IMG/VR virus record: IMGVR_UViG_2663763243_000008
Location: 15,814 to 79,813 of that record
Source of the DNA: a virus
Lineage: Duplodnaviria > Caudoviricetes
DNA length: 64,000 nt
Direction: 5' to 3' (one strand)
Shown here: positions 19,226-35,587 of the stretch, one piece after another
Layout of the letters: every line of letters begins with the position of its first letter
How positions within the stretch are numbered: position 1 is the first letter of the stretch
Notes under the pieces: model-generated
What the model was told of the DNA's origin: nothing
Seen by the model: the letters and a program-made list of their open reading frames with translations, nothing else
Databases searched by the model: none
Made by a program: the position numbers and the translations under genes

Positions 19226-20023
19226 ATGAGCGAAGAAAATAAAATTAGAGATGCCGCAGATGCAGTAGCTGGTATTGTTAAAGCTGTTCCAGTATATCAG
19301 GATGTTCTGCAACCAGCAGCTCAGGAGGTTGGCTCAGCACTACAGACGGTAGCTAAAACGATACATATCGTATTAGCACCAGTGAGTGCTATGGTCTGGG
19401 GATACGATAAAATCAAAGACTTTATATCTACTAAAGTTGCAGAAAAATTAAAGGATGTACCACCTGCAAATTTAATATCACCAAAACCTAATGTGGCAGG
19501 GCCAGCTTTAGAAGCATTAAAATATATAGGTCACGATGAAAGTTTAAGTAATCTTTATGCGAATTTATTAGCTTCCTCAATGAATAAAGATACTGCCAAT
19601 TCTGCGCATCCTTCATTCGTTGACATCATTAAACAGTTAACTTCTGATGAAGCAAAACTGTTAAATTACTTTTTGCTTGACCAAGCACTCCCATTACTTA
19701 GTGGGAATTTTAAATTAAAAAATGGAGGCGAAATTTCTTACCAAAAAAACTTCTCATTATTTGGTGAAAAAGCCGGAATTGATATTTTAAAAAATATAAA
19801 TAGTTATATTGACAACCTATGCCGCTTGGGTATTTGTGTAATTCCCATAGACCGTGAGTACACAGATAAAAGTATTTATAAAGAAACACTTGACTCTCCA
19901 TTTTTTATAAAATCCATTGATGATTCGACTGGAAGATTTGAATCAAAAATAAGCATTGAATACAAATCATTAGAAATAACTGATTTTGGGAAGCAATTTT
20001 TAGATACTTGTGTGAAAGATTAA
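19226..20023 (+). CDS. DUF4393/Abi-alpha family protein
   Basis: VYQDVLQPAAQEVG, PKPNVAGPALE, LYANLLASSM, HPSFVDIIKQL, IDNLCRLG, TDFGKQFLDTC. Confidence 0.8.
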   Translation: MSEENKIRDAADAVAGIVKAVPVYQDVLQPAAQEVGSALQTVAKTIHIVLAPVSAMVWGYDKIKDFISTKVAEKLKDVPPANLISPKPNVAGPALEALKYIGHDESLSNLYANLLASSMNKDTANSAHPSFVDIIKQLTSDEAKLLNYFLLDQALPLLSGNFKLKNGGEISYQKNFSLFGEKAGIDILKNINSYIDNLCRLGICVIPIDREYTDKSIYKETLDSPFFIKSIDDSTGRFESKISIEYKSLEITDFGKQFLDTCVKD

Positions 20024-20049
20024 TAATATGAAACAGGGAGGCTTTATAG

Positions 20050-21054
20050 ATGGCGATTAACAAACTTCCTTCAGGAAAATGGCTTTGCCAATGCTTCCCT
20101 TATGGCCGTGATGGTAAACGGATACGTAAACAATTTGCCACTAAAGGCGAAGCACTTTCATACGAACGCCGCATGATGGTGAATAAGCAAGATACGGGGC
20201 TGGGTGTTAGTGCGGTAACACTTAATGAATTAGTTGAGCGCTGGTATGAAATGCACGGTAAGACCCTATCTTCTGGCGAGTCCCGTAAAACTAAATTATT
20301 GGCTATTTGCGAGCGAATGGGGGAACCCTTAGCGGCAGATGTCGATAAAAATATGTTTGCTGTTTATCGGGAACGGCGGCTGAATGGTGAATGGCAAGCA
20401 AAAGGACGTACTGTTGTAAAAGAAGCTACTGTTAACCGTGAACAATCATACCTACATGCTGTATTTTCAGAATTAAAACGCCTTGGTGAGTGGGAGGGAA
20501 GTAACCCGCTTGATGGTATCCGGCAATTTAGTGAGGGCGATCAAGAACTGGCCTTTCTGTCCCAAGATGAAATCAAGCGGCTTTTAGTCTCCTGTGATGA
20601 GTCGGAAAATAAAAGTTTGGGAACTATCGTTCGCCTCTGCTTGGCTACTGGTGCTAGGTGGGGAGAAGCGCAGGATATGAAACAGTCGCAGATATTGCCT
20701 AGCCGTGTGACTTATATTAATACTAAGGGCAAAAAGAACAGAACCGTACCGATATCTGAAAAACTATTTAAGCGTATACCAAAAAATCGCGGCGCTTTAT
20801 TCACTCCATCTTATGATGCATTTAAACATGCATTGAAAAGGGCGGCTATTGAGTTGCCTAAAGGGCAACGCACACACGTACTCAGACACACCTTTGCTAG
20901 TCACTTTATGATGGGCGGCGGAAACATTTTAGTGCTGCAACAAATTCTTGGTCATAGCACTATTTTAATGACGATGAGATATGCACATTTTGCCCCTAAC
21001 CACTTGGATGCGGCCATCGCATTAAACCCCTACGACAAGCTAGTTATTGAGTGA
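20050..21054 (+). CDS. int: P2-type tyrosine integrase
   Basis: TGARWGE, HVLRHTFASH, ILGHS, MRYAH. Confidence 0.95.
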   Translation: MAINKLPSGKWLCQCFPYGRDGKRIRKQFATKGEALSYERRMMVNKQDTGLGVSAVTLNELVERWYEMHGKTLSSGESRKTKLLAICERMGEPLAADVDKNMFAVYRERRLNGEWQAKGRTVVKEATVNREQSYLHAVFSELKRLGEWEGSNPLDGIRQFSEGDQELAFLSQDEIKRLLVSCDESENKSLGTIVRLCLATGARWGEAQDMKQSQILPSRVTYINTKGKKNRTVPISEKLFKRIPKNRGALFTPSYDAFKHALKRAAIELPKGQRTHVLRHTFASHFMMGGGNILVLQQILGHSTILMTMRYAHFAPNHLDAAIALNPYDKLVIE

Positions 21055-21120
21055 TAAATAGCGAATTTTAATGGCAGCAAAAACAAACCCTGCGCAAATA
21101 TAGCTAAACATGCACATTTA

Positions 21121-21153
21121 TAACTTATTGAATACACTTAACTTATTGATTTT
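21121..21153. promoter_or_regulatory. IHF-like site / TAACTTATTGA direct repeats beside att
   Basis: TAACTTATTGA at 21121 and 21139; the second matches WATCAANNNNTTR on the minus strand. Confidence 0.55.
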
Positions 21154-21171
21154 AAAAAGTAGCATCAAATT

Positions 21172-21225
21172 TTTAAAATCCCTCGGCTTATGGCTGTGCG
21201 GGTTCAAGTCCCGCCCCGGGCACCA
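21172..21225 (+). tRNA. 3' fragment of tRNA-Leu(UAA) (leuZ-like), att core shared by both prophages; not an intact tRNA
   Basis: TTTAAAATCCCTCGGC...GCTGTGCGGGTTCAAGTCCCGCCCCGGGCACCA: anticodon loop to CCA, 5' half absent. Confidence 0.88.
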
Positions 21226-21269
21226 TGGAAACAAATCTAAGTAAAACAAAGTAGTATGAGTATGTCGTT

Positions 21270-21292
21270 AACCGCCGAGAGGCGGTTTTTTT
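21270..21292 (+). terminator. Rho-independent terminator
   Basis: AACCGCC-GAGA-GGCGGTT followed by a T-run. Confidence 0.8.
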
Positions 21293-21307
21293 GTGCCTGA
21301 AATCTCA

Positions 21308-21341
21308 TTCCTAAGATGTTCCTAACATCATTTCCTAACAT
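21308..21341. repeat. Three TTCCTAA(G/C)AT direct repeats, probable integrase arm sites
   Basis: Copies at 21308, 21319 and 21332, between att core and int. Confidence 0.7.
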
Positions 21342-21365
21342 GATTTCGGTTATCTGAATAAAAAT

Positions 21366-22382
21366 TCACTTTTTCTGACCGCCTACCACTGGCACAATTT
21401 CTGTTTTCCTATCATATCTTGCTGTTTGGGCTGTATTCTTGTGCCCTGAAATGGCTTGCTTCTCTGCGAGGGTTCCCTCTAAGTCTGATATTCCCTTGGC
21501 TTTTAAATCATGAAACGTGAAATCAAAGTCCAATTCGGAAAATGTTTTTGCGGCCAATAATTTTGCGTTGCGCCACCGACTATTGAAACCATCTCTTGTG
21601 TAGCCATGCCCAGACCGCTGATGTAGTACATAAATACTGCTCACACCTGGAGCGATTTCTATTCCATCTGCAATTTTGATGGCCTGCTGTAATCTTTCCG
21701 TCCATGCCTTGATCTGTTTCTTTCCTGTTTTCCCTTGCTGTATAAATACCCCGGCATCTATTAGCTGTGACTTTTTTAAGGCGAGGATGTCTGCTTGCCG
21801 AGCGCAACAAAGATAGGCGAGTTCCATTGCCGCTTTTACAATCGGCGGAGCTACGTTGTAGAGAGCGCTATATTCAGCGTCAGTAATGTATCGTTCCCTG
21901 CTAACCTCTTTAAATTGCTTAACATCCTTGCATGGGTTGCCTTTTACCATTCCCCTCTCATATCCCCAACGATAAACCCGCGATAGGAAAGTTTTCTCAC
22001 GGTTTGCCTGTGTTCTACTGGCAACCCCGCGTCTATCCATATATTTCCTGATATGTTCAGGTTTTATGTTGTCTGGTTCCATTTTCCCGAAAACTGGTAA
22101 TACTCTAAGTGAATATTTGCGGTAGTCTTTCTGCGTCTCAACAGCTAACTCATTAAAATCAACAGAGCGGAAAAACTGTTCAATGAGTTTATTCAAGTTG
22201 GCTTTTTCTAATGGCTCAGTATTTATTTTTTCGTAGCATGACCATACTTGAGAAATAGGTGCATCCAATGGGCATAGCGATATTGAGCCACCGCGGGCGG
22301 GGTGGAATTCATATTTCGATTTTCCACGATACACCCGAGGTGGTAATGCCGTGTCTGCGGCGTTCTTGCGTTTACCGGCCAC
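21366..22382 (-). CDS. int: Tyrosine integrase (lambdoid)
   Basis: CARQADIL, FHDLKAKG, SGHK, TARYDR. Confidence 0.93.
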   Translation of the reverse strand: MAGKRKNAADTALPPRVYRGKSKYEFHPARGGSISLCPLDAPISQVWSCYEKINTEPLEKANLNKLIEQFFRSVDFNELAVETQKDYRKYSLRVLPVFGKMEPDNIKPEHIRKYMDRRGVASRTQANREKTFLSRVYRWGYERGMVKGNPCKDVKQFKEVSRERYITDAEYSALYNVAPPIVKAAMELAYLCCARQADILALKKSQLIDAGVFIQQGKTGKKQIKAWTERLQQAIKIADGIEIAPGVSSIYVLHQRSGHGYTRDGFNSRWRNAKLLAAKTFSELDFDFTFHDLKAKGISDLEGTLAEKQAISGHKNTAQTARYDRKTEIVPVVGGQKK

Positions 22383-22608
22383 TGTTCATGGCCTCGAAAT
22401 TGGGTTCTTCTTTTTCTGGCTCTAGCGGCTTACCGCGTAAACTGATTGGATTCAAAAAATGGCCCCAAGTGGTTTTCGGGTGTCCGTCTGGGCGTCGGAT
22501 AAAAAAGATCCCCGAGCGGCGTAAAGAGTCACATTGTTTGGTTTTGTAGTGATGACCGGTCAACTCAATCATCTCCTCTTTGGTGATTATGTCGTGGTCG
22601 TTTTTCAT
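22372..22608 (-). CDS. Excisionase (DUF4224-like)
   Basis: ELTG...KQCDSLRRSGIFF...DGHP...EPNFEAM, directly upstream of int. Confidence 0.8.
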   Translation of the reverse strand: MKNDHDIITKEEMIELTGHHYKTKQCDSLRRSGIFFIRRPDGHPKTTWGHFLNPISLRGKPLEPEKEEPNFEAMNSGR

Positions 22609-22771
22609 GGTCTTGCCCCTGTATCATTTGGGTTATTGCTCTGTCGGTCGCAGAACAGGCCCGCTGTATATCGTGGTCGGTGAGTTGTTGTTTCCGTACA
22701 CTGGCTGATAATTTGCCGATCTTAATATCTAAGTCGGTTAATAGGCGTTTGCCCGGTTGCCATGGCTGCAT
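22565..22771 (-). CDS. Hypothetical protein
   Basis: ORF with RBS in the pL operon. Confidence 0.6.
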   Translation of the reverse strand: MQPWQPGKRLLTDLDIKIGKLSASVRKQQLTDHDIQRACSATDRAITQMIQGQDHEKRPRHNHQRGDD

Positions 22772-22820
22772 GGTGGTTTCCCTGGTGTTGGATTTCCACC
22801 ATGCTAGCGGGGCAGGTTGA

Positions 22821-23003
22821 TTATTTCTGATTATGCAAAATCAATTTTTCGGGTGCTTTCTGCGGTGGGGTGCTGCTAATTCGAACATCTACCGGAAAAT
22901 CGTAGTGAACATCACAACGGCGATCAGTGTGGATGGTGCCTGTTCGTCCATCGGGGAGTGTGATATAGGACTTTTCACCGCGTTTGTGAGTACGCTTTAG
23001 CAT
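22821..23003 (-). CDS. Small protein with CsrA-like pattern
   Basis: MLKRTHKRGEKSYITLPDG...VHYDFPVDVRI resembles the CsrA MLILTRKVGE...APKDVSV layout. Confidence 0.5.
   Translation of the reverse strand: MLKRTHKRGEKSYITLPDGRTGTIHTDRRCDVHYDFPVDVRISSTPPQKAPEKLILHNQK
22827..22844. promoter_or_regulatory. YdaT/CII-type inverted repeat (CTGATT-N6-AATCAA), pI-like promoter
   Basis: Same repeat as 27799-27816; leftward -10 TAGCAT at 22801-22806. Confidence 0.65.
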
Positions 23004-23048
23004 GGGTGTTGCCTCAGTAATGCCCCGTTGGTTTGGGGCGGGATGAAA

Positions 23049-23549
23049 TTAGCGAACCTGCAGGCTACGGCTACCGATCTCGATATGCGCACCTTTAACA
23101 TCAACACCATTCTCTATGGCTTCCTTAATGGCTTTTTTATCGGGCGCTACGGTGGTTTGCACTGTCACCAATTCACTGGACAATAAGTCTTCATTGTCGA
23201 TCACCACACTGGCCACACCTTTGCGTGCGGTGAATGTGTTATACGGCGTTTTAAGTGTGTTCATATCTGCGGCCAATAAGCAGTTAAGGACGTACTGTTT
23301 GATCGATTTGGCCCGATTCTCGAATGACCTTTTCCGCTCAGCCAGACGTTTAGCTTCCTCATCACAGGTCTTTGCTTGCCCCTCAAGATTGCGAACAAAG
23401 ACGTAGGTTGCATCCAGCTTATCCCCCAGGGCACCCTCTAACCCCTCAAGCGTATCGGCGATCATTTCTGGCGTGAGTTCCTCTGAGGACTCAACCAACT
23501 GTTGCAGTTTGAAAAGGTCTGCGGCTAATGCGATTGCTGTATTGCTCAT
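23049..23549 (-). CDS. Siphovirus Gp157 family protein
   Basis: IADTLEGLEG...PDKKAIKEAIENGVDVKGAHIE...SLQVR. Confidence 0.85.
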   Translation of the reverse strand: MSNTAIALAADLFKLQQLVESSEELTPEMIADTLEGLEGALGDKLDATYVFVRNLEGQAKTCDEEAKRLAERKRSFENRAKSIKQYVLNCLLAADMNTLKTPYNTFTARKGVASVVIDNEDLLSSELVTVQTTVAPDKKAIKEAIENGVDVKGAHIEIGSRSLQVR

Positions 23550-25741
23550 AATGTCGGCTCCTGTGCGGTAAGTTCAGCAACCCGTTTTTCAGTTAAGCGG
23601 TGTAACGCCAGCAGGCGGGTTTTGAGGTAATTGGCGTGTTCGTGATCGGCTTTGGCTTCTGCATCTTTGCGGTGTACATCAACTTCACGCGCAATGGTGC
23701 TGTAAACCTTGTTCACTTCGTTGGTGGTGACGGCGCTCGTAATGGTATTGCCTACTTTGGTTAACTTCTCATCCAGCTCTTTGCGCAGACGAACTGAGTC
23801 ACCGGCTTTCTCACTTGCGTTCTTGATAGCAAACTCAGCGGCGTTATCAGTGCGGTATCCGAGATCATCAAAAAGACCGAGGAATACATCAGCAGAGAAA
23901 CCAAGTTGTGACAGTGCCTTTTTAGTCGCATCCGTTAGTGATTTTTTGGTGACTTCACTATCACAGGTGAGACCGTTTTTGGTGTTGTAGATATATGGGG
24001 TGCAACCATATGCAGGGATTTCGCCACGCTCACCACGCAGGGTGTAGATTAAGCGTATTTTAATGACATGATTGATCTCAGTTAGATAGCCGCCAGATCC
24101 GTTGGGTATGACTTCTTTTATATAATTTCCATCAGCACCTTTGACTGACCGCATGATCGGTGCACCGTTATCAAAGCGTTCTTCTAAAATCTCCACCCGC
24201 CAGTTGATACCTTGTGGCCCAAGCAATTTTGTTGCTTGCATAACCATATAGGTGCCGTTAATCGACGTGCCACCACCGTTATTTGAGAATGCTTTAGTAA
24301 AGCGTTCATCGGTTCTTTGCACCGAGCGCCACAGATTCATGTTGTCCTGCACATCTTGTGGCTGTGAAGATATATCCTCTTCAATGATGACGGCTCGCTG
24401 CTGAAATTCATCAGCAGTAACATCTACAGTAGGAATAGCGCTTTGCTGCGCCTCTTCAATAACCTCTGTCGGCTTCTCCTCAACTGAGGCATAAACGCTG
24501 TAACCCAACTGATCCAACGTCTCTTTAGCCTGTTGAGCTGCGTTATCAGTGATAGGTTCCAGTTCAGGGTTTTCCTGTTCTGTTTCAACAATTGGCGGTT
24601 TTGTTTCAGTTTCTGGCTCAGAATTGGCAACCAGCGCCAGTTTTGTTTCATTGTTTGCCGCTGGTTGCGGTTCACCACCGGCTAGACCATCAATAGAGAA
24701 CTTGCCATCACCCAGATTGGTTACTGCGGGTTGTGGGTTTTTAACGGCTAAACACTGAGTGATAAATTCCTTTCGTGCTGAGGCATCGGTCAGGAAGATA
24801 GGTTGCTTTTTACCCGCGCGGATCACTTCAAAGATGCTTTCACGTGGAATAGATAACACATTGTTGCGAACGCGAAAATCGGTTGACCATTTACGCCAGG
24901 CATCATCATTGTTATCCATCAGCTCTTTTGCTTGCTTCATCTCTGCCGACATGACATCCCAGCAGTTAAAATCAGCAGGCAATAAGGCGAGAGCGACTTC
25001 GAGATCGAGCGTTTTATATGTGTGCTCAAAGCTGCGTTTGATTGGCGCATCAGGAGCCGGCGTGTCAATACGGGCAACTTTTTTAGTACCGGTTAACTCG
25101 TCACGATTGCTGGGTTCATTAACCCATTTTTCAGCAAAGCTACGTACTTCCCTGAATCCAGGTATTTTGGGGAATTTCTTATTTATCGCATCAATAAGAT
25201 TTTTAATTGACTGCGGATACATCGCGCCAATTGCAGGAATACATGTGAGCGCCATGTATATCGAACTTATTTCCGGCTCAGCGTCGTCATCATTAATTAA
25301 GTCATACACAAGTGATAGCTCATGTGAATCAATGTCACGCGCACCGTACAACATTACGCTACCAACTTTAGCTCCAATACCCAGTTTGTTGAAATCAACC
25401 GGAGTAGTAGTAATGTCCTCACTTACCTCGCCGTTGTCTTCATTACCATCCTCAGGCAACGGTACAGCATTAGGCGTCCATACTTTGCCATCAAAGGTAT
25501 TATCCTGTGCGAACTGCTCATCGAACTCACCAACAACCGGGCGCGGTTGCCCGACAGTATCCTCACAGATTTTCGGATCAGCAAAGTTATCACCGGCAGC
25601 GGGGTAGGCTTCCCATAATTTCCCGATGGCCAGTGCGGATGCCATTTTCTTATTTATGGCTTCCAGAGCTATAACAAGCGGTATAGCCCCATTTTTGAGA
25701 GCCGCTTTTTTCGGCTCGAATAAACAAATAAATACAGTCAT
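23546..25741 (-). CDS. RecE-N-terminal-like region fused to Rad52/Sak-like annealing domain
   Basis: N-terminal FEPKKAALKNGA / HTYKTLDLEVALALLP; C-terminal TSINGTY...GPQGINW...KKSLTDATKKALSQLGFSADVFLG. Confidence 0.7.
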   Translation of the reverse strand: MTVFICLFEPKKAALKNGAIPLVIALEAINKKMASALAIGKLWEAYPAAGDNFADPKICEDTVGQPRPVVGEFDEQFAQDNTFDGKVWTPNAVPLPEDGNEDNGEVSEDITTTPVDFNKLGIGAKVGSVMLYGARDIDSHELSLVYDLINDDDAEPEISSIYMALTCIPAIGAMYPQSIKNLIDAINKKFPKIPGFREVRSFAEKWVNEPSNRDELTGTKKVARIDTPAPDAPIKRSFEHTYKTLDLEVALALLPADFNCWDVMSAEMKQAKELMDNNDDAWRKWSTDFRVRNNVLSIPRESIFEVIRAGKKQPIFLTDASARKEFITQCLAVKNPQPAVTNLGDGKFSIDGLAGGEPQPAANNETKLALVANSEPETETKPPIVETEQENPELEPITDNAAQQAKETLDQLGYSVYASVEEKPTEVIEEAQQSAIPTVDVTADEFQQRAVIIEEDISSQPQDVQDNMNLWRSVQRTDERFTKAFSNNGGGTSINGTYMVMQATKLLGPQGINWRVEILEERFDNGAPIMRSVKGADGNYIKEVIPNGSGGYLTEINHVIKIRLIYTLRGERGEIPAYGCTPYIYNTKNGLTCDSEVTKKSLTDATKKALSQLGFSADVFLGLFDDLGYRTDNAAEFAIKNASEKAGDSVRLRKELDEKLTKVGNTITSAVTTNEVNKVYSTIAREVDVHRKDAEAKADHEHANYLKTRLLALHRLTEKRVAELTAQEPTL

Positions 25742-25796
25742 GTTGGTCTTGCCTCTTTGGTTTTTAAACGGATCTTGGTCTTTGATGTATGACTAA

Positions 25797-26132
25797 TTAA
25801 AAAGGAATTTCGGTATCATCAGATACGTTCGATGGAGTGCTGTGCTCGATGCATAGCAACGCCTGAATCTGATCATCAATTAGTGACTGCTTACGATATG
25901 ACTCAGCCGCAATCTGTTCCTTTTTGCTATGGAGTGAATCGACATGCTTGCTGATGATTTCAAAAGGGTCGGGTTCGTCAAAAGGAATCGTAATTTCTCG
26001 GGTTTCGAGTAAAACATGCGCTGGCTCAACCTGTGACATGTCACAGGTGTACACGGTAAAGCGATCATCTTTTGATGTTGAATATGGATTGGTATGGATG
26101 TAGAGCTTGGTGGTTATCTGTAGTGCTGTCAT
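25797..26132 (-). CDS. Hypothetical phage protein
   Basis: Start MTALQ with AGGAG RBS; C-terminal QIQALLCIEH. Confidence 0.7.
   Translation of the reverse strand: MTALQITTKLYIHTNPYSTSKDDRFTVYTCDMSQVEPAHVLLETREITIPFDEPDPFEIISKHVDSLHSKKEQIAAESYRKQSLIDDQIQALLCIEHSTPSNVSDDTEIPF
26029..26048. repeat. 20-bp perfect palindrome containing TGTGACATGTCACA, intragenic
   Basis: ACCTGTGACATGTCACAGGT. Confidence 0.9.
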
Positions 26133-26141
26133 AGCAACTCC

Positions 26142-26150
26142 TGATATACT
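26142..26150 (+). promoter_or_regulatory. Extended -10 promoter (TGaTATACT) for the antisense sRNA
   Basis: Matches TGnTATAAT with one mismatch. Confidence 0.65.
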
Positions 26151-26156
26151 TATTTT

Positions 26157-26274
26157 AAGATTGATGGCGTAAGCCGTTGGTCTTGCCTCTGTTAACGGGT
26201 TGGTCCCCGTTAGCTTCCCGGTTAACTTTGGTCGGTGACCCGGGGTAAAGAAGCCCACTTCGGTGGGTTTTTTT
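26157..26274 (+). ncRNA. Putative ~118-nt multi-hairpin antisense sRNA with UUGGUC loops
   Basis: Promoter, GUAA hairpin, anti-RBS segment, two UUGGUC-loop hairpins, cUUCGg terminator; G-U pairs favour the + strand. Confidence 0.75.
26251..26274 (+). terminator. Rho-independent terminator of the sRNA
   Basis: AAGCCCAC-TTCG-GTGGGTTT then T-run. Confidence 0.85.
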
Positions 26275-26442
26275 ACGTCTGTAATTTGGTGCCCATTACG
26301 CCGGGCCAGCGGGTCAGATCTTCGGTCTTGCCTCACCACACTTTCCCGTCGTGGCTACGTTATTGGTTTGGGCTGCTGCACTGTGGTAATCATGCCGAGC
26401 CTTGGCGCGGGGTTCTCCTCCAATGCAACAACCCAAATTCTG

Positions 26443-26598
26443 TTATTGCCGTACTTTGACTACTTGATAATCACGGCCAGTATTACGTGCGTAATCATCA
26501 GCTTCTTTGCGAGTTGGGTAAGTATTTCCGTTAGCCCACATTCCACAGTAGCGATATTGGATCTGGAATTTACTCGCTTGCTTTTTAGTTGCTTTCAT
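26443..26598 (-). CDS. Small first gene of the pL operon (51 aa)
   Basis: MKATKKQASK... with GAGGG RBS. Confidence 0.6.
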   Translation of the reverse strand: MKATKKQASKFQIQYRYCGMWANGNTYPTRKEADDYARNTGRDYQVVKVRQ

Positions 26599-26746
26599 AA
26601 CTTCCCTCTTTTGCCGTCTTCCCGGCTGCCAGAACGTACTAAACCTAAACTTGCGAATCATCCGGTGTTTCGTATGCCACCGGCAGCTACTTCGTGGGCG
26701 TCCTGCCTGTTCGCATCGGCTACTGTGCCGTGTTGATGAGAGAAAT

Positions 26747-26795
26747 GTACCTATAGTTACCTTTCGTGTCAATAAGGGGGTGTTCCAATAGTTAC
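26747..26795. promoter_or_regulatory. OL operators / pL
   Basis: GTACC-TATA-GTTAC (26747) and GTTCC-AATA-GTTAC (26782); TTGACA on the minus strand between them. Confidence 0.7.
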
Positions 26796-26838
26796 ATTTA
26801 GGGGCATAAAAAAGCCCATCAGGGGGATGGGCTATTGA

Positions 26839-27501
26839 TTACAGGTCTTGGGTAACCTGAACAACGCGACCGAGAATACGGCAATTGCCGTTTATTTCGA
26901 TGGGTTTGAAATTGGGATTTAAAGGCATTAGGTATTTATTGGGGCCATCAACAACTAACTTTTTAATGGTGGCCTCGGAGCTGCCATCAATGATGGCGAC
27001 CACTATTTTACCGTACAAATCATCAATAGAACCATAATTAGGTTCTACGATAACGGTAGACCCCTCGGGGATAGAAGGGGAACCATTGGGGTTGGTCATT
27101 GACTCACCCCGAACATCCAAACCAAATGCGTTTTCAGAAACCTTCACTGTGGTGTTGCACCATCTAAGAACATCAGAGATACGGGCGGCGGAGTAGGTTT
27201 CTGTCCAGGCACCGGCTTGAACGGATGAGATGACAGGTATGGCATTAGGCACAGCGACGAGGGGCTTAATCTTCGTATCGTCAACCTGACGTAAATCTCC
27301 GGTACCATAGAGTAACCACTCTGGCGTGCATGAAAGTATTTGCGCCAGCCGGTGAAGATTTTCCCCATCTGGTTTAGTGATTCCTGACTCCCATTTTGTC
27401 ACTGATACACGGCTCACCCCAATAGCTTTGGCTAATTGGACTTGCGTGAGATCTAGCTGCAGTCTGCGAAGACGGATGCGGTCATTCATTTCATTTTTCA
27501 T
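26839..27501 (-). CDS. cI: CI repressor (HTH + S24 peptidase)
   Basis: LTQVQLAKAIGVSRVSVTKWESG; VRGESM and ATIKKL. Confidence 0.93.
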   Translation of the reverse strand: MKNEMNDRIRLRRLQLDLTQVQLAKAIGVSRVSVTKWESGITKPDGENLHRLAQILSCTPEWLLYGTGDLRQVDDTKIKPLVAVPNAIPVISSVQAGAWTETYSAARISDVLRWCNTTVKVSENAFGLDVRGESMTNPNGSPSIPEGSTVIVEPNYGSIDDLYGKIVVAIIDGSSEATIKKLVVDGPNKYLMPLNPNFKPIEINGNCRILGRVVQVTQDL

Positions 27502-27563
27502 GTAACCAATGTTACGCCATAGCGATGTGAAAAGTGTTTGCATTGTTATGTACCTTTTGTTAC
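27502..27563. promoter_or_regulatory. OR operators / pR
   Basis: GTAAC-CAAT-GTTAC (27502) and GTACC-TTTT-GTTAC (27550), same consensus as OL. Confidence 0.7.
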
Positions 27564-27593
27564 CTTTCATCCTGAGTTAAACAAGGAGTTCCT

Positions 27594-27779
27594 ATGAACA
27601 AGAAAGATGTCGTCAAGTTTTTTGGTGGGGTAGTGAATACCGCCACGGCCTTAGGCATAAAGCACCCAGCAGTTTGCCGTTGGGGGGCAATTATCCCTGA
27701 GAAACAGGCAATGAAGATTGAACGCATGACTCATGGCGAACTGAAATATGACCCCGCTATGTATCGAAGTGCAGCCTAA
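27594..27779 (+). CDS. cro: Cro-like repressor
   Basis: KDVVKFFGG...ALGIKHPAVCRWG..IPEKQA...GELKYD. Confidence 0.88.
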   Translation: MNKKDVVKFFGGVVNTATALGIKHPAVCRWGAIIPEKQAMKIERMTHGELKYDPAMYRSAA

Positions 27780-27798
27780 CCCAATCCCACTCACAAAT

Positions 27799-27816
27799 CT
27801 GATTATCAATAATCAA
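27799..27816. promoter_or_regulatory. YdaT/CII-type inverted repeat (pRE-like)
   Basis: CTGATT-ATCAAT-AATCAA between cro and CII. Confidence 0.7.
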
Positions 27817-27839
27817 TTTCCTGCGACAGGAGACGCAAC

Positions 27840-28304
27840 GTGGAACAAGAAATTAAAGCCCTTAAAGCCGAAGTTCAGGCGTGGGCGGCAGAGCGGGGGC
27901 AGGAGCATGTAGCTATCGAGATCAGCAGAATGTTTTTCTTGCTCAATATCAACACCGGTTCAGTTCGTCTCACTCCCATTGAAAACGGGCAGGGCGGCGC
28001 TGATTGGAAGTCTATTAACAACAACCGGCAGCAGTTATTTCGCTGGCTGCGCGGGGATTCAAAAGCATCAATGCGCAAGGTCTTGGAATTATCACCGGTA
28101 CTTAAAGCGGCACTCCCGGCAGAACGGCGGGCCAGGGTGAATGGCGAGACCGTGAATTATTTGGTTTCGATTGCCAGTCGAGAGTTTGCCGCAGCAATTA
28201 GCGCGGTTCTATTAGATGGCTGTGACATGTCACAAAGGATATCGGGCGCTGTTGCGGCACTTCACGCAATCAGACCACAACACCACCGGCTGACCACCGT
28301 ATAA
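27840..28304 (+). CDS. CII-equivalent regulator, YdaT-like
   Basis: VQAWAAERGQEHVAIEI...NNRQQLFRWL; CII position. Confidence 0.75.
   Translation: MEQEIKALKAEVQAWAAERGQEHVAIEISRMFFLLNINTGSVRLTPIENGQGGADWKSINNNRQQLFRWLRGDSKASMRKVLELSPVLKAALPAERRARVNGETVNYLVSIASREFAAAISAVLLDGCDMSQRISGAVAALHAIRPQHHRLTTV
28221..28234. repeat. Palindrome TGTGACATGTCACA, intragenic
   Basis: Perfect copy, read as CDMSQ in the CII frame. Confidence 0.9.
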
Positions 28305-28320
28305 AACAGAGGCAAGACCA

Positions 28321-28545
28321 ATGCTTACATCTATCGACAAAATCACCTGGCGCAACGGATTCCGGCTTAACGGCCAACCGGCAAGCATGGTTGACATCGC
28401 CCCTATTTTTGCCGGGCGTCAGGTAGCCGCCTATAGCGTGTGGGAGCAGTATGAACAAAAGAAAGCCGACCTGCGCGGGATGAACCTATCGCCTGACGAT
28501 TATCAGTCTGCCTGTCGGCAAATAGCCGAAGCGCTAGGGATCTGA
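28321..28545 (+). CDS. Hypothetical protein
   Basis: ORF preceded by the AGAGGCAAGACCA RBS motif. Confidence 0.7.
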   Translation: MLTSIDKITWRNGFRLNGQPASMVDIAPIFAGRQVAAYSVWEQYEQKKADLRGMNLSPDDYQSACRQIAEALGI

Positions 28546-28547
28546 CT

Positions 28548-29522
28548 ATGAGCATGAATCTAATGGCTCGGGCCATGAATATCAAAGTCGGCAACCCGTT
28601 ACGAAAGTTAGTGCTGATAAAATTAGCTGATAATGCGAACGATCAGGGCGAGTGCTGGCCATCGGTTCCCTACATTGCCGATCAGTGTGAAATATCCGAA
28701 CGCTCGGTACAGAATCATATTCAAGAACTGGTCAAAAGTGGGCTGGTTAGGATTGAAGAACGTAAATCTGATAATGGCCTGAATCGTTCAAATGTTTATC
28801 ACCTGCGCTTAAATTCCGCTGGTGCAAATGCTGCACCCTATGGTGAATCTCCTGCACCCTCTGGTGTAAATGGTGCACCGGTTAGTGGTGCAAATGCTGC
28901 ACCCAGAACCAGTCACTCTTTTGAACCAGTCATAGATCCAAATACACCCCTTACCCCTCAAGGGGAAACCGAAAATATTCTCGCTGACGCTGAAAAGGCT
29001 TTGGCGTATTACAACGAACTCACTCACACTCGGTGTGAAGATTCTAGCCCATTCGAAACCTTGCTGACGGCAACGAAATCACGCAAAGCCTACGCGCTGG
29101 CTGATTTGCAACTGGTGGCCCTATGGGTAGTCAGCACATGGAAACCCCGCAACGGCAAGTATGCCAAACCTGCGAATATCTGCCGTGTAAACCGGTTCGA
29201 TGGTTATCTGGCTGATGCCCGCGCATGGTCTGAGTCTGCCGGGCGGATTGATTGCGATGAGGTCATTGCTGCGTATAACCGTGTATTCAGCGATGTTTTG
29301 CCACCGGCTGAAATCGATCAGGACCGTAAACACGCCATCCGCGAATTACTCCAATACCTCAAAACCAAAGACCTTGAAGCGTTCCAGAGCTACTTCGAAG
29401 CCTTTCGCGGACAGGCAACCGTGTTTTATTTCGGTGGTGATGATGGGGCAGGCTGGCGGGCAAACTTTGATTATCTGATGAAACCGGAAGTTTTAAGAAA
29501 AACCCGTGATGGTGCGCTATGA
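28548..29522 (+). CDS. Replication initiator (O-like, HTH)
   Basis: KLVLIKLADNANDQGECWPS; internal iterons; WRANFDYL. Confidence 0.9.
   Translation: MSMNLMARAMNIKVGNPLRKLVLIKLADNANDQGECWPSVPYIADQCEISERSVQNHIQELVKSGLVRIEERKSDNGLNRSNVYHLRLNSAGANAAPYGESPAPSGVNGAPVSGANAAPRTSHSFEPVIDPNTPLTPQGETENILADAEKALAYYNELTHTRCEDSSPFETLLTATKSRKAYALADLQLVALWVVSTWKPRNGKYAKPANICRVNRFDGYLADARAWSESAGRIDCDEVIAAYNRVFSDVLPPAEIDQDRKHAIRELLQYLKTKDLEAFQSYFEAFRGQATVFYFGGDDGAGWRANFDYLMKPEVLRKTRDGAL
28821..28903. repeat. Replication origin iterons (4 x GGTG-N7-TGCACC)
   Basis: Copies at 28821, 28842, 28863 and 28887. Confidence 0.8.
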
Positions 29523-30880
29523 ATGCATACGATTTAGAGTCAGCGGTAGTGGGTGGCCTGCTGCTCGGTGGCGCTACACCAGATGCCTATGACGTTATTG
29601 CCACTTTGCCTGAGGACGCCTTTAATACGGCATTCTTCCGCCGCGTGTATATCGAGATTAAGCGTCAGGCGCTGGGGACGTCAGTCATTGATCCGATCTT
29701 AGTCGGCGAGTCGATGGGGGGTGATGATTTTGCCAACGTCTTAAGCACAGCAAAAAGCTGTTGGAGCGCTGCAAATCTCAAGGGCTATGCAGACCTGGTT
29801 CGCGAATATTGGCATGTACGTGCGTTGACGGCAGCAATCCAAAAAGGGCAGCAGCAATTGGCCGCCTCTCACAGTCATGAACAGGCCAAGTTTGCTGTAG
29901 CTGAATTCATGGTCACCATGACCGAATTAACAAGCGAAAGTGGCGGCTTAATGCCGGTACACATCAAGGAATTGATGGATACCTATGTCGACACGCTGGA
30001 AAAACGGAACTTAGGCGCAGAAGAAACCCGCATGATCATGACCGGCATTGAACCGCTGGATCAGTTGACCGGAGGCTTTAACCCCACCGATTTAATTATA
30101 CTGGCCGGACGCCCCGGCATGGGTAAAACAGAGTTGGCGTTAAGCATGATTAACGGCATGACCCGTAATGGTGGTGGCGCTTTGTTGTTCTCTATGGAGA
30201 TGGCAGCACAGCAGATTACCGAACGTACCATTGCCGGATCTGCCCAACTACCCGTATCCAAATTGCGTTCTGGCGTACTTTATGAGGAGGATTGGGCGCG
30301 CATATCTAACAGCCTTGGCGAGTTGGTTAATCAGGATATTTGGATTGTTGATGCCAGCGAACTCACCATTGATCAGATACGCGCCATTTCTGAAACGCAT
30401 AAACGCCGTTACCCGCACTTGAGTGGCGTATTTGTTGATTACATGGGGCTAATTACCACACCAAAAGCTGAGCGGCATGATCTGGCCGTTGGCAAAATAT
30501 CCGGTGGCCTCAAAGCCCTTGCAAAACGCATCCATACGCCTGTTATCGCCTTAAGCCAACTATCTAGAAAGGTGGACGAAAGGCCCGCGGGTATGCGTCG
30601 TCCCGTTCCCGCCGATCTGCGTGACTCTGGTTCTGTTGAACAAGACGCTGACCGAATAATTTTCACCTACCGCGATGTTATTTATAACCCACTCAGTCCA
30701 GCCAAGGACTACGCCGAATTGATTTTAGCTAAAGATAGATTTGGCATTCCGGGTGTCGTGTACCAGCAATTTAAAAATGGGCATTACATGCCAACTAACC
30801 AAACTAGTGCAGAGCAAGTATGCCGTATGCAGCAGGAAGCAAAATCAAACAATAGAAGTTACTCAACAAAAAAATTTTAA
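29519..30880 (+). CDS. dnaB: DnaB-like replicative helicase
   Basis: AGRPGMGKT, FSMEM, VDYMGL, LSQLSR, DLRDSGSVEQDAD. Confidence 0.95.
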   Translation: MNAYDLESAVVGGLLLGGATPDAYDVIATLPEDAFNTAFFRRVYIEIKRQALGTSVIDPILVGESMGGDDFANVLSTAKSCWSAANLKGYADLVREYWHVRALTAAIQKGQQQLAASHSHEQAKFAVAEFMVTMTELTSESGGLMPVHIKELMDTYVDTLEKRNLGAEETRMIMTGIEPLDQLTGGFNPTDLIILAGRPGMGKTELALSMINGMTRNGGGALLFSMEMAAQQITERTIAGSAQLPVSKLRSGVLYEEDWARISNSLGELVNQDIWIVDASELTIDQIRAISETHKRRYPHLSGVFVDYMGLITTPKAERHDLAVGKISGGLKALAKRIHTPVIALSQLSRKVDERPAGMRRPVPADLRDSGSVEQDADRIIFTYRDVIYNPLSPAKDYAELILAKDRFGIPGVVYQQFKNGHYMPTNQTSAEQVCRMQQEAKSNNRSYSTKKF

Positions 30881-30924
30881 CCGCGCCTGACCAGCGTTTA
30901 AGTAACCCCAAAAGAGGCAAGACC

Positions 30925-31305
30925 ATGAAAAAACGTGAACTAACTACCCGTGAATTGGCTGAGGTTATGCTGGGCCAAAGCATGAGCTACAGCCAGATTA
31001 TCGAGGCTATAGCTTTAAAATTCCCTAATGCTGAAATGCCTATTAACGTACTGCGTATCCGTGTGAGAAGCATGGTGCTCTCACCTCATGCAGACATTAC
31101 CCGCCGCAATGGTCGAAAGACTCAATACACCCTCAACAGTATCTCAGAGGATTTTTTCCGATTCTCTGACACACAAGTCAAACGCAATAAAAGCGAACCC
31201 CGAACTAAACCCGCCAGAATGCCATTTGATGATAAGGAGTTGGCGTACTGCTTGCGAGCATCCCGAATAAATCAACTGATGAGCACTGTAGGCATGGGGA
31301 GTTAA
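30925..31305 (+). CDS. Hypothetical (winged-helix-like) protein
   Basis: ORF preceded by the AGAGGCAAGACC RBS motif. Confidence 0.65.
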   Translation: MKKRELTTRELAEVMLGQSMSYSQIIEAIALKFPNAEMPINVLRIRVRSMVLSPHADITRRNGRKTQYTLNSISEDFFRFSDTQVKRNKSEPRTKPARMPFDDKELAYCLRASRINQLMSTVGMGS

Positions 31306-31309
31306 TACC

Positions 31310-31561
31310 ATGTCCGGGCAATCTGATTATCTCCCGCCCGGACTCCCGTACAACATTTGCCTCTGGCCTCAGGAATACCAAGAAAAGCTAAATCTTGATT
31401 TGAGAGCCAGCGGCTTAATCAAAAACCTGTACGAGCGCAGGACCAACCGCGCTCATGTACTTGAAGCGATTGAACGGGTACCGGTGCATTACCGAGAGTT
31501 TTTTAAAGAGCGCTTAAATTACTGGCGTGACCGTAGAGACCACAGAGGCGAGACCAAATGA
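31310..31561 (+). CDS. Hypothetical phage protein
   Basis: MSGQSDYLPPGLP start; coupled. Confidence 0.65.
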   Translation: MSGQSDYLPPGLPYNICLWPQEYQEKLNLDLRASGLIKNLYERRTNRAHVLEAIERVPVHYREFFKERLNYWRDRRDHRGETK

Positions 31562-32064
31562 ATATTTCAACCGATGGCATGATTGCTGCAATTCGTTCAG
31601 CAGCGGAAAGAGTGGAACCACGTGAAAGTGAGGTGCTAAACGGCATCGCTGATCGCATAGCGGAGCTGGTGACCTCAGCTAATAAGAACCGGCGCACAGC
31701 GAAGCATTATGAGCGGGAGTGTTTGGAGTGGCAGGGGAAATATAATGTGATTGTTGCCGAGAACGCAGCACTTCAACAATCCTGCGTCCATGTATATAAC
31801 GCTGGTTACAACAGGGGGCATCTGAATACGGTAGATGGCATCTCTTCATGTGGCGACTATGAAGAAGATGCATTTGAGGCGCTATACGAAGTAATTAGTG
31901 TCCCTGCAACCATTCTGGCTCTTAATGATGTAGAGGCGAGTGGTGTTGAAAAATTTGCGCAGCACCGTCACGTACAAGCCTTTGACGTTGGTGTAATGGC
32001 AGATACAGGCGAGATTTCCAATATTCTTGATTTCGCAGCAAGACTACGTGAGGGGGCGCAATGA
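31558..32064 (+). CDS. Ead/Ea22-like protein
   Basis: AENAAL...ASGVEKFA...FAARLREG motifs. Confidence 0.65.
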   Translation: MNISTDGMIAAIRSAAERVEPRESEVLNGIADRIAELVTSANKNRRTAKHYERECLEWQGKYNVIVAENAALQQSCVHVYNAGYNRGHLNTVDGISSCGDYEEDAFEALYEVISVPATILALNDVEASGVEKFAQHRHVQAFDVGVMADTGEISNILDFAARLREGAQ

Positions 32065-34226: not shown

Positions 34227-34576
34227 CTGACACCAAGGAACGGGCTACGGCCCGTAAACGCCTACAACGGCAAAAAGAACGTGAGAACGGCAGTTATAAA
34301 TTAATAGCGACGATAGACCAGCAAGAAAAGGAAATGTTACAGCAGAACTGCGCCTTGCGTCGGCCGCAGCGCGAGCCGTATGACATGGACGAGTACATAA
34401 CTATGTTGATACGCAAAGATAACGCAGAGCTACAGGCGCAGCTCAAAGAGCAAGCTGGGCGCAAGTGCGGTAAATGTGGCGATGCCCTACCTGGTGATAG
34501 TCAGGGCTGTGCATTTATAGGTGAAAGTGAATGCTGGCAAACTCTTGGCTGGCATGAGACTAAATTAACTATATAG
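34223..34576 (+). CDS. RHH-like DNA-binding protein with Cys4 motif
   Basis: Homologue of 12489-12833 (RKRxQRQ, PY..xEY..LIRxDN, CxxCGDxLPGD, SECWQTLG). Confidence 0.75.
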   Translation: MTDTKERATARKRLQRQKERENGSYKLIATIDQQEKEMLQQNCALRRPQREPYDMDEYITMLIRKDNAELQAQLKEQAGRKCGKCGDALPGDSQGCAFIGESECWQTLGWHETKLTI

Positions 34577-34601: not shown

Positions 34602-34618
34602 ATAAATGGAGATAAAGA

Positions 34619-35579: not shown

Positions 35580-35587
35580 GAGCAATC

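What the first reader, a model, noticed from the sequence alone, without database searches (positions are those of the whole stretch)
26142..26274. Multivalent antisense sRNA that targets the ribosome-binding sites of its own prophage's lytic genes
Seen: extended -10 TGaTATACT (26142-26150); hairpin GATGGC-GTAA-GCCGTT; segment TTGGTCTTGCCTCTGTT (26177-26193); hairpin TAACGGG-TTGGTC-CCCGTTA (26193-26212); a third hairpin with TTGGTC in its loop (26217-26244); and a cUUCGg terminator. GNRA/UUCG loops and G-U pairs all favour the + strand, antisense to pL. The segment is a perfect 17-nt complement of the 28321 gene RBS (28305-28321), pairs over 15 nt with the recE/sak RBS, and is complementary or nearly so to the xis, 30925 and ead RBSs. 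Several of these leaders carry extra GACCA motifs that the UUGGUC loops could pair with. Established: P1 C4 and P4 CI are RNA-based immunity systems with few targets. Inference: a CI-independent, trans-acting RNA layer that silences excision, recombination and replication genes in both early operons, and possibly those of related superinfecting phages. Similar prophage sRNAs may already be catalogued without a function.
Basis: partly seen in the sequence, partly recalled or inferred. Interest (0 to 1): 0.88.

Follow-up and report, generated by a model that had tools for sequence, protein, structure and literature searches.

The report
Prophage small RNA mirroring shared start-site tag
A lambda-like prophage carries a conserved gene for a small RNA of about 118 bases, a distant relative of Salmonella IsrB, whose front part mirrors a ribosome-binding tag on several early phage genes, so one RNA probably holds excision, recombination and replication genes down together, although nobody has yet seen the RNA or tested it.

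Summary
The 17-mer has 7 matches (up to 3 mismatches) in the window against 0.12 expected. Six are the region itself or lie directly before start codons of early genes (xis, recE, the gene before O, two right-operon genes).

The region is a + strand sRNA gene. All 42 distinct relatives fold into the same four hairpins and are more stable on the + strand. 97% of aligned pair cells are paired, with compensatory changes. It is a borderline Rfam IsrB match (35.0 bits, cut-off 35). IsrB was shown by Northern blot in Salmonella Gifsy prophages and has no known target.

The strongest new evidence concerns seed and tag. A lineage whose seed core reads UUUCC instead of UUGCC carries only GAGGAAAGACC tags (39 copies, 0 of the other). 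Loci with the usual seed carry only GAGGCAAGACC (398 copies, 0). True IsrB phages have neither seed nor tag.

No RNA data could be obtained, so trans repression remains an inference (about 0.6). Rivals are cis-antisense action only, or a tag-binding factor.

This scan has found the same system before in Serratia, Providencia/Proteus and ZF40-like prophages.

The parts
26142..26150 (+). extended -10 promoter element TGATATACT of the sRNA, abutting the complement of the ribosome-binding site of the leftward gene that starts at 26132
   Evidence: Sequence. A -10-like hexamer sits at the same position in every lineage printed (TATACT, TAAAAT, TATATT, TATAAT; TAGAAT or TAGACT in true IsrB). The start near 26157 is inferred, not measured.
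26157..26274 (+). predicted sRNA, about 118 nt: H1, free linker, H2, H3, terminator
   Evidence: Fold -57.5 kcal/mol, z -5.7. Rfam isrB match over 26187-26273, 35.0 bits, cut-off 35. Same architecture in 42 of 42 distinct relatives. The + strand is more stable in 42 of 42.
26157..26184 (+). hairpin H1 (AAGAUUGAUGGC-GUAA-GCCGUUGGUCUU); its 3' arm is the first half of the seed
   Evidence: All 8 H1 pairs vary while 97% of cells stay paired, many as G-U, which excludes the - strand.
26177..26193 (+). seed segment UUGGUCUUGCCUCUGUU; the 12 nt UUGGUCUUGCCU are invariant in 42 of 42 aligned variants, and GCCUCU (26185-26190) is the free linker
26191..26214 (+). hairpin H2 with loop UUGGUC
   Evidence: 16 distinct H2 helices among 42 variants all form; the loop is UUGGUC in 40 of 42. 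A compensatory A-U to U-A change is seen in L191.
26217..26244 (+). hairpin H3, loop holding CUUUGGUCGG; this is the block shared with true IsrB
26245..26274 (+). intrinsic terminator: GCCCAC-UUCG-GUGGG extended by A-U and G-U pairs, then seven U
   Evidence: The scan listed this site only on the - strand, where the tail is CTTCTTTACC.
26324..26334 (-). orphan copy of the tag GAGGCAAGACC on the leftward transcript, with no start codon after it
   Evidence: It is present in about half of the close relatives. In the variant-seed lineage the equivalent orphan carries the variant letter.
28305..28321 (+). tag AACAGAGGCAAGACCA-ATG of the 74-aa gene (phrog_2465) that precedes O and the helicase; a perfect 17-nt complement of the seed
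   Evidence: Best net cofold energy of 127 candidate starts, -30.9 kcal/mol.
25743..25759 (-). tag of the recE-like exonuclease gene (23546-25741)
   Evidence: Rank 2 of 127.
22607..22623 (-). tag of the excisionase gene (22372-22608, phrog_1266), GGGGCAAGACC-ATG
   Evidence: Rank 4 of 127.
23003..23019 (-). weaker tag (GAGGCAACACC) of the 60-aa gene 22821-23003 (phrog_2482)
   Evidence: Rank 15 of 127.
30910..30926 (+). tag of the 126-aa gene 30925-31305
   Evidence: Rank 6 of 127.
31541..31557 (+). tag (GAGGCGAGACC) of the 168-aa gene 31558-32064
   Evidence: Rank 3 of 127.
25797..26132 (-). 111-aa gene (phrog_2479) whose leader the sRNA is antisense to

Best explanation
The stretch 26157-26274 (+) is the gene of a small RNA of about 118 nt. 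It belongs to a seed-bearing sister clade of the Salmonella prophage sRNA IsrB. It is read from an extended -10 promoter, backwards through the leader of the leftward early operon.

The RNA has four hairpins. Between H1 and H2 lies a free anti-Shine-Dalgarno stretch, (UU)GCCUC(U). The 3' arm of H1 continues it with UUGGUC. Together they mirror a private start-site tag, GAGGCAAGACC(A)-AUG. In this phage the tag opens xis(-int), recE(-gam), a 60-aa gene, the 74-aa gene coupled to O and the helicase, and two further right-operon genes.

Inferred mechanism: pairing starts at the free linker on the Shine-Dalgarno sequence and opens the G-U-rich H1. This gives a 13-17-bp duplex over the ribosome-binding site and start codon, and blocks initiation. 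Through overlapping or abutting stop and start codons the block reaches the downstream cistrons.

Because the RNA is also perfectly complementary to the leftward transcript, it probably acts on that transcript in cis as well.

Shown here: the gene's structure and strand, its conservation, and the co-variation of seed and tags. Inferred: expression, repression, and the timing (lysogeny).
For: 1. Structure and strand.
- 42 distinct variants all fold as H1-linker-H2-H3-terminator.
- The + strand is more stable in 42 of 42, mean -53.7 against -36.2 kcal/mol.
- On a structure-blind MAFFT alignment 97.4% of pair cells are paired, against 34-57% when partners are slid. 8 pairs show double changes. 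The covariation score is 0.314 against 0.228 in shuffles (0 of 500 reach it).

2. Homology. The window matches Rfam isrB at 35.0 bits, at the cut-off of 35. A true IsrB locus scores 105.5 bits. It has the same place and orientation as IsrB-1 and IsrB-2, which were detected by Northern blot and primer extension (PMC2330248, passages read).

3. The seed. UUGGUCUUGCCU is invariant in 42 of 42 variants while both neighbouring stems vary. A purely cis-acting antisense RNA would not need that.

4. Targets in the window. There are 7 matches to the 17-mer against 0.12 expected. With unfolding costs counted, the tagged starts rank 1, 2, 3, 4 and 6 of 127 candidate starts preceded by a Shine-Dalgarno-like sequence.

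5. Co-occurrence.
- 38 of 44 viral records of at least 30 kb, found only through the tag, carry exactly one sRNA gene (31 of 34 among those at least 90% complete).
- None of the 22 true-IsrB loci examined has the tag.
- A de novo search for repeated 9-mers before candidate starts found the tag in all 7 seed-bearing loci tested and no comparable repeated word in any of 15 IsrB-type loci.

6. Co-variation. 8 loci whose seed core reads UUUCC hold 39 GAGGAAAGACC and 0 GAGGCAAGACC. 89 loci with the usual seed hold 398 and 0 the other way round. One further lineage, L380, has a different seed that matches its own repeated box at about 21 of 23 positions.

7. Gene layout. Tagged genes head coupled blocks. 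By the ORF coordinates, recE and gam overlap by 4 nt, xis and int by 11 nt, the 74-aa gene stops 2 nt before O, and O and the helicase overlap by 4 nt.
Against: - No transcript was seen. No listed RNA run held the prophage, and the three RNA runs laid gave nothing on this stretch.
- The seed is partly buried: 8 of its 17 nt lie in H1 and 3 in H2.
- The seed is by construction the complement of a tag copy on the leftward transcript. The co-variation would therefore also arise if all tag copies followed some other tag-reading factor.
- The 89 and 8 loci are not independent. Several come from the same contigs, and the lineages are few (about a dozen seed-bearing ones, one with the changed core).
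- Beyond the core, flank matching is only modest: mean extension 2.9 nt with the phage's own sRNA against 2.19 nt with foreign ones, with phylogeny not controlled.
- True IsrB, which shares H3 and the terminator, has no seed and no recognisable local target. The shared part must therefore do something else.
- A plain duplex scan without accessibility gives many chance hits at -26 to -30 kcal/mol.
Confidence: 0.6

Rival explanations
1. The RNA is real but works only in cis. As a classical antisense RNA it pairs with the fully complementary leader of the leftward early transcript. That would cause cleavage, termination, or interference between the face-to-face promoters, and so limit phrog_2479-recE-gam expression. 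On this reading the match to other start sites has no function.
For: The geometry shows the sRNA lies inside the leftward operon between two leftward genes. Both hairpin loops carry UUGG, which fits the Y-U-N-R loop pattern that I recall as typical of antisense RNA recognition loops; this was not tested by any search. True IsrB lacks the seed yet is conserved at the same place. Its discoverers describe it as overlapping flanking genes in antisense (PMC2330248).
Against: A cis-only antisense RNA is complementary to its target whatever its sequence. That does not explain a 12-nt block invariant in 42 of 42 variants next to freely varying stems. It does not explain why 4-6 dispersed tags per locus carry the complementary letter in the changed-seed lineage. 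It does not explain why tags occur only in phages whose sRNA has the seed.
Confidence: 0.2
2. The tag is read by something other than the sRNA, for example a phage RNA-binding protein or a special ribosome contact, or it serves as a short recombination boundary between modules. On this reading the copy inside the sRNA gene is one more tag on the leftward transcript, acting as a decoy, standby site or attenuator. The seed is then only its mirror image.
For: Tag copies without a start codon exist on the leftward transcript at 26324-26334 and inside the sRNA gene. In some relatives the copy inside the sRNA gene is followed by ATG and a 4- or 10-codon mini-frame.
Against: The start codon after that copy is absent in the Yersinia-type majority and in the ZF40, L291 and L244 types, and the mini-frames are not conserved. 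H1 is built around the + strand version with many G-U pairs. The - strand folds worse in 42 of 42 variants. No candidate tag-binding protein was looked for, so this rival is not excluded.
Confidence: 0.13
3. There is no RNA gene. The stretch is the N-terminal coding part of a longer phrog_2479 protein: the frame is open from 26339 to 25797, and ZF40 gp08 is annotated across the equivalent stretch.
For: A 180-codon open frame runs 25797-26339 on the - strand. The ZF40 gp08 CDS covers the homologous region.
Against: Close relatives differ by a 2-nt insertion between H2 and H3 (GCTTCCC against GCAATTCCC), which breaks that frame. The PHROG profile is matched from residue 1 of the 111-aa form, whose ATG at 26132 is preceded by AGGAG. 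The pattern of change is that of paired RNA stems.
Confidence: 0.02

Closest known systems
IsrB-1 / IsrB-2 of Salmonella Typhimurium prophages Gifsy-2 / Gifsy-1 (Rfam RF01386)
   Same: Both are prophage sRNAs next to recE (sbcA), in the orientation <- -> <-. They share the H3 loop GCUUUGGUCGGUGA, the terminator, and a -10 box abutting the neighbouring gene's ribosome-binding site.
   Different: IsrB is 88 or 94 nt long. It lacks H1 and the UUGGUCUUGCCUC seed, and its phages lack the tag. Seed-bearing members score 32-38 bits, or do not match at all, against 105.5 bits for true IsrB. I found no published target or function for IsrB (searches; passages).
C4 RNA of phages P1 and P7, and CI RNA of satellite phage P4 (RNA-based immunity).
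   Same: These are phage-encoded small RNAs, made in the lysogen, that pair with repeated complementary boxes in the phage's own early transcripts. In P1 the pairing covers a ribosome-binding site.
   Different: No match to any other Rfam family reached E<=1 over 20000-36000 except weak rsmX and CRISPR-DR33 hits. Those RNAs are processed from the target operon's own transcript and have one or two targets. Here a separate promoter and terminator are predicted, with five or six targets in both early operons.
Staphylococcal RNAIII and RsaE-type sRNAs with repeated C-rich seeds (recalled)
   Same: The same short seed is repeated in loops and in a free stretch, and is aimed at Shine-Dalgarno regions of several mRNAs.
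   Different: Those seeds pair with the generic Shine-Dalgarno sequence of host genes. Here the seed extends over a phage-private spacer, so only tagged genes match.
Lambda OOP and P22 sar antisense RNAs (recalled)
   Same: These are short terminated antisense RNAs inside early operons of temperate phages.
   Different: They act only on the overlapping transcript and have no shared tag on other genes.

Membership tests
Rfam RF01386 isrB | Covariance-model score at or above the curated cut-off of 35 bits | tested here: inconclusive
   The window scores 35.0 bits, E 0.0037, exactly at the cut-off. Close relatives score 38.4 and 34.8 bits. L244 scores 38.2 and L070 32.4; ZF40, L273 and L291 have no match at E<=0.1; a true IsrB locus scores 105.5.
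Rfam RF01386 isrB | Position and orientation: in a lambdoid prophage beside recE/sbcA, antisense to both flanking genes | tested here: met
   for the window. PMC2330248 Table 1 gives 'sbcA/STM1010 <- -> <-'.
Rfam RF01386 isrB | Whole architecture of the model (87 positions: small 5' hairpin, H3, terminator) | tested here: not met
   The model covers only 26187-26273. H1 and most of the seed lie outside it, and the model's first hairpin is aligned to the unrelated H2. The 5' halves of the two groups do not align.
Rfam RF01386 isrB | A detected transcript of defined size | not testable with these tools
   No RNA run held the prophage.
Trans-acting base-pairing sRNA that blocks ribosome-binding sites | A seed conserved more strongly than the rest of the RNA and at least partly single-stranded | tested here: met
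   A 12-nt block is invariant in 42 of 42 variants. The free linker is 4-7 nt in 30 of the 42 folds, shorter or absent in 11, and 10 nt in 1.
Trans-acting base-pairing sRNA that blocks ribosome-binding sites | Seed and target sites change together | tested here: met
   A G-to-U change in the seed goes with C-to-A in every tag: 39 and 0 against 0 and 398. The caveat of the orphan tag copy is given in the Against line.
Trans-acting base-pairing sRNA that blocks ribosome-binding sites | Repression shown with compensatory mutations | not testable with these tools
   This needs a bench experiment.
CsrB/RsmX-type protein-sponge RNA | Family score and GGA motifs in the loops | tested here: not met
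   rsmX scores 23.6 bits against a cut-off of 56. The loops read UUGGUC, not GGA.

The most novel reading that the evidence does not exclude
A large clade of temperate phages of enterobacteria marks the first cistron of each dangerous early block (excision, recombination, replication) with a private 'address tag'. One lysogeny-expressed sRNA reads the tag, giving an RNA layer of immunity beside the CI repressor. Phages with different immunity regions share the same tag, so a resident prophage would also silence heteroimmune relatives. Seed and tag pairs that have switched a letter (UUGCC with GGCAA, UUUCC with GGAAA, and the L380 type) would then be distinct RNA-immunity specificity groups.
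Probability: 0.3. Interest if true: 0.85.

Novelty: new variant of a known kind. Interest (0 to 1): 0.7.

Why it matters
IsrB has been catalogued since 2008 without a target or a function. This seed-bearing sister clade suggests a concrete, testable job: one small RNA that reads a private ribosome-binding tag and so controls a whole set of early phage genes after transcription.

If true, it adds an RNA layer to the lambda-type lysis-lysogeny switch. It would explain why unrelated early genes share an identical spacer between the Shine-Dalgarno sequence and the start codon. It predicts cross-immunity between heteroimmune phages, and specificity groups defined by a single base pair.

It also flags an annotation error. 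The ZF40 gp08 coding sequence is drawn across the homologous stretch, and in this window an equivalent 180-codon frame is open across the RNA gene.

Tried and rejected
- **Expression.** The look-up of sequencing runs listed no RNA holder. Read laying on 25900-27700 with three raw RNA runs of the same species label and one contig run put nothing on the sRNA. The RNA runs do not appear to contain this prophage, and the contig run of unknown kind only shows that a relative's DNA exists. This says nothing for or against expression.
- **Close DNA relatives.** The phage collection and complete E. coli genomes gave none. The only hit was ZF40 in distant mode.
- **Prevalence.** Rfam isrB matched 1 of 151 species genomes, and the strict sRNA pattern 1 of 401, in the order around a Yersinia relative. 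In both cases only the centre genome itself matched. The element is therefore rare among the representatives searched. Taxon names were not given.
- **A local partner for the H3 loop or for the 5' part of true IsrB.** Searching for exact complementary 9-mers, and for the loop complement with up to 3 mismatches, in 22 IsrB-type loci gave no consistent site.
- **Plain duplex scan of the window.** It is too noisy, with chance hits at -26 to -30 kcal/mol. I replaced it with cofold net energies.
- **RNAalifold on the MAFFT alignment.** It misplaced H2 because of insertions and deletions. I left H2 out of the pair count and described it from single-sequence folds.
- **- strand structured leader (nut/put-like element or sponge).** Rejected as the main reading because the + strand is favoured in 42 of 42 variants.
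- **Coding extension.** Rejected because of the 2-nt insertion.
- **Literature.**
  - The tag letters are found only in unrelated eukaryotic primer lists among the 20 papers listed of 252.
  - No paper on a prophage sRNA aimed at its own excisionase or start sites appeared among the 25 listed of 167.
  - The search was badly designed and useless.
  - The ZF40 genome paper does not mention ribosome sites, small RNA, antisense or terminators.
  - E. coli 'IsrB' (AzuCR) is a different RNA.
The supplements of PMC2330248, of the ProQ and Hfq binding studies, and of the Salmonella RNA-RNA interactome papers may hold IsrB partners that I could not see.
- **L315, L336 and L362.** These carry an H3-like element in another context and were not followed up.
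Full report
**Setting.** The window is part of a 79.8-kb provirus record. Around the finding lies a lambda-type early region:
- Integrase 21366-22382(-) and excisionase 22372-22608(-).
- Small genes, then a Mu Gam-like gene 23049-23549(-).
- A recE-like exonuclease 23546-25741(-).
- A 111-aa gene of PHROG 2479 at 25797-26132(-).
- A gap of about 310 nt that holds the finding.
- A 51-aa frame 26443-26598(-) with no family.
- A CI-type repressor 26839-27570(-, HTH plus S24 peptidase).
- Cro 27594-27779(+) and a YdaT/CII-like gene 27840-28304(+).
- A 74-aa gene 28321-28545(+).
- An O-like initiator 28548-29522(+) and a DnaB-like helicase 29519-30880(+).

Close relatives of the neighbouring protein lie in Yersinia frederiksenii and Y. 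artesiana contigs.

**The observation.** The 17-mer TTGGTCTTGCCTCTGTT has 7 matches with up to 3 mismatches in the window, where 0.12 are expected.
- One match is the region itself.
- One is a perfect complement ending on the A of the ATG at 28321.
- Four others, with 2-3 mismatches, sit directly before the start codons of recE, xis, the 30925 gene and the 31558 gene.
- The seventh, at 5275, is not at a start.

Several early genes therefore share a tag, GAGGCAAGACC(A)-ATG. A weaker copy precedes the 60-aa gene at 23003. A copy without a start codon lies on the - strand at 26324-26334.

**Is it an RNA gene, and on which strand?**
- The + strand of 26157-26276 folds into four hairpins at -57.5 kcal/mol (z -5.7). 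The - strand gives -35.7 kcal/mol (z -2.2).
- Rfam finds isrB (RF01386) over 26187-26273 on the + strand, at 35.0 bits, exactly the curated cut-off.
- Pattern scans of viral contigs and protein-anchored loci gave 41 further distinct variants carrying the same seed. They come from about a dozen lineages, including Pectobacterium phage ZF40.
- All 42 fold individually into H1, a short free linker, H2, H3 and a terminator.
- The + strand is the more stable one in 42 of 42, mean -53.7 against -36.2 kcal/mol.
- On the MAFFT alignment A2, which knows nothing of structure, 97.4% of pair cells in H1, H3 and the terminator are standard pairs. The figure is 34-57% when partners are slid by 1-3 columns. 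8 pairs carry changes on both sides. The covariation score is 0.314 against 0.228 in shuffles (0 of 500 reach it).
- Many H1 pairs are G-U, which would be A-C mismatches on the other strand.
- H2 was misaligned by MAFFT. Single folds show 16 distinct H2 helices that all form, with loop UUGGUC in 40 of 42.
- A -10-like hexamer abuts the neighbouring gene's ribosome-binding site in every lineage printed.
- A 180-codon frame is open through the region on the - strand, and ZF40 gp08 is annotated across the equivalent stretch. Close relatives differ there by a 2-nt insertion, so it is not coding.

**Relation to IsrB.** IsrB-1 and IsrB-2 of Gifsy-2 and Gifsy-1 are RNAs of 88 or 94 nt between sbcA (recE) and the next gene, in the orientation <- -> <-. 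They were shown by Northern blot and primer extension and are induced by starvation (PMC2330248, passages read). [quoted passage not shown] Hfq co-purification was weak, with a twofold enrichment in the table (PMC2515195). None of the papers my searches found gives a target.

True IsrB loci in the viral collection (about 22 distinct variants) share with the window only the H3 loop GCUUUGGUCGGUGA and the terminator. Their 5' halves are unrelated. They score 105.5 bits, whereas seed-bearing members score 32-38 bits or nothing. The window's RNA is therefore a distant, mostly uncatalogued sister of IsrB and not a plain member.

**Seed and tag.** The 12 nt UUGGUCUUGCCU are invariant in all 42 variants, while the 5' arm of H1, its loop and the H2 stem change freely. 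In the folds the free linker is (UU)GCCUC(U), an anti-Shine-Dalgarno word, and UUGGUC sits in the 3' arm of H1.

With the cost of unfolding both partners counted, the net cofold energies for the tagged starts rank 1 (28321, -30.9), 2 (recE, -18.4), 3 (31558, -17.6), 4 (xis, -16.9) and 6 (30925, -12.8) among 127 candidate starts preceded by a Shine-Dalgarno-like sequence. The median is -4.2 kcal/mol.

The tag itself is widespread. The 112 new loci held 218 copies before real frames and 58 others.

Of the roughly 87 distinct contigs found that way (my hand count), I checked the 44 of at least 30 kb as whole records. 38 carry exactly one sRNA gene by a strict two-block pattern (31 of 34 among those at least 90% complete). 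Four of the six without it are metagenome records with a single hit.

None of the 22 true-IsrB loci examined has the tag. A de novo search for repeated 9-mers before candidate starts recovers the tag in all 7 seed-bearing loci tested and finds no comparable repeated word in any of 15 IsrB-type loci.

The tagged genes are orthologous across lineages, judged by the first residues of their products: recE, xis, the PHROG 2482 gene and the PHROG 2465 gene before O.

**Co-variation.** A scan anchored on H3 and not on the seed brought in eight loci of one lineage whose seed reads UUGGUCUUUCCUC, a G-to-U change in the core. The architecture is otherwise the same. Every one of these loci carries 4-6 exact copies of GAGGAAAGACC, 2-4 of them directly before start codons, and no GAGGCAAGACC.

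Over all loci held, the 89 with the usual seed (the window included) have 398 C-type and 0 A-type tags. The 8 with the variant seed have 0 and 39. These counts include the copy inside each sRNA gene, and several loci come from the same contig, so the number of independent events is small: essentially one switch. But that switch involved all dispersed sites.

A further lineage, L380, has a different pre-H3 segment that is complementary at about 21 of 23 positions to two copies of a box of its own; one of them lies just before an ATG, and a third shorter match also exists.

Outside the core, flanks match the phage's own sRNA slightly better than foreign ones (2.9 against 2.19 nt). This is modest and not corrected for relatedness.

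**What this does and does not show.** The gene, its strand, its structure and its evolutionary link to the tags rest on computed results. Three things are inference:
- that the RNA is made;
- that it blocks initiation at tagged starts;
- that this reaches int, gam, O and the helicase through coupling.

One caveat weakens the co-variation argument. The seed is the mirror image of a tag copy on the leftward transcript, so if all tags followed some other reader, the seed would follow too. Against that reading:
- the start codon after that copy is absent in many lineages, and the mini-frames are not conserved;
- H1 is built on the + strand version;
- the - strand folds poorly.

A cis-antisense effect on the leftward transcript is likely in addition. 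It may be the only role in true IsrB, whose H3 loop has no local partner that I could find.

**Novelty.** Prophage antisense and immunity RNAs, and sRNAs with repeated seeds against ribosome-binding sites, are known kinds. IsrB itself is catalogued. I did not find in print a phage-private start-site tag read by the phage's own sRNA, nor any function for IsrB. I therefore file it as a new variant of a known kind.

This scan has met the same system before on other DNA, in Serratia, Providencia/Proteus and ZF40-like prophages, with the same closest relative named. My searches and tests up to one search were made before I read those follow-up summaries, and the results agree with them. Searches came after I had read them.

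**Verdict.**
- Observation: confirmed.
- Real IsrB-related sRNA gene: about 0.9.
- Trans repression of tagged early genes: about 0.6.
- Interest: 0.7.

Noticed in passing
window 26744-26833, - strand: Directly after the CI-type repressor gene comes a terminator-like hairpin (26833-26813). A near-consensus promoter follows (TTGACA-17-TACATT, 26772-26744), pointing left. This is a likely pL, which would make the 51-aa frame 26443-26598 (no PHROG or Pfam match) the first leftward gene.
   Followed up: no
window 26275-26345 and L241, L276: Just past the sRNA terminator the + strand carries a further GGTCTTGCCTC copy. In some relatives there are two tandem copies plus extra GGTC words. These are orphan tags on the leftward transcript, present in about half of the close relatives, and their role is unknown.
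   Followed up: partly
L197 (phage ZF40) 3619-4107; window 25797-26339: ZF40 gp08 is annotated as a 162-aa protein that runs across the sRNA homologue. The same open frame exists in the window. This is probably an over-extended annotation of a gene of about 107 aa.
   Followed up: partly
L123, L068, and the L070-type loci: In some relatives a G-to-A change in H1 puts an ATG after the - strand tag copy inside the sRNA gene. The result is a 15-codon in-frame extension of the next gene, or a mini-frame of 4 or 10 codons. The RNA pairing is kept (U-G becomes U-A).
   Followed up: partly
L380: A divergent relative has the same H3 and terminator. Its pre-H3 segment is complementary at about 21 of 23 positions to two copies of a different repeated box in its own locus, one of them just before an ATG, with a third shorter match as well. 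This may be a third seed and tag specificity.
   Followed up: partly
L315, L336, L362: An H3-like hairpin (loop CTTTGGTCGG, then GGGTAAC and a T run) sits behind a TATAAT box in an AT-rich, unrelated context. It may be an even more distant relative.
   Followed up: no
window 26157-26168: The 5' arm of H1 (AAGAUUGAUGGC) resembles a degraded copy of the tag with its start codon (AAGACCAAUG). Transitions in it keep pairing with the seed through G-U. H1 therefore looks like an internal mimic of the seed-target duplex that a perfect target could displace.
   Followed up: no
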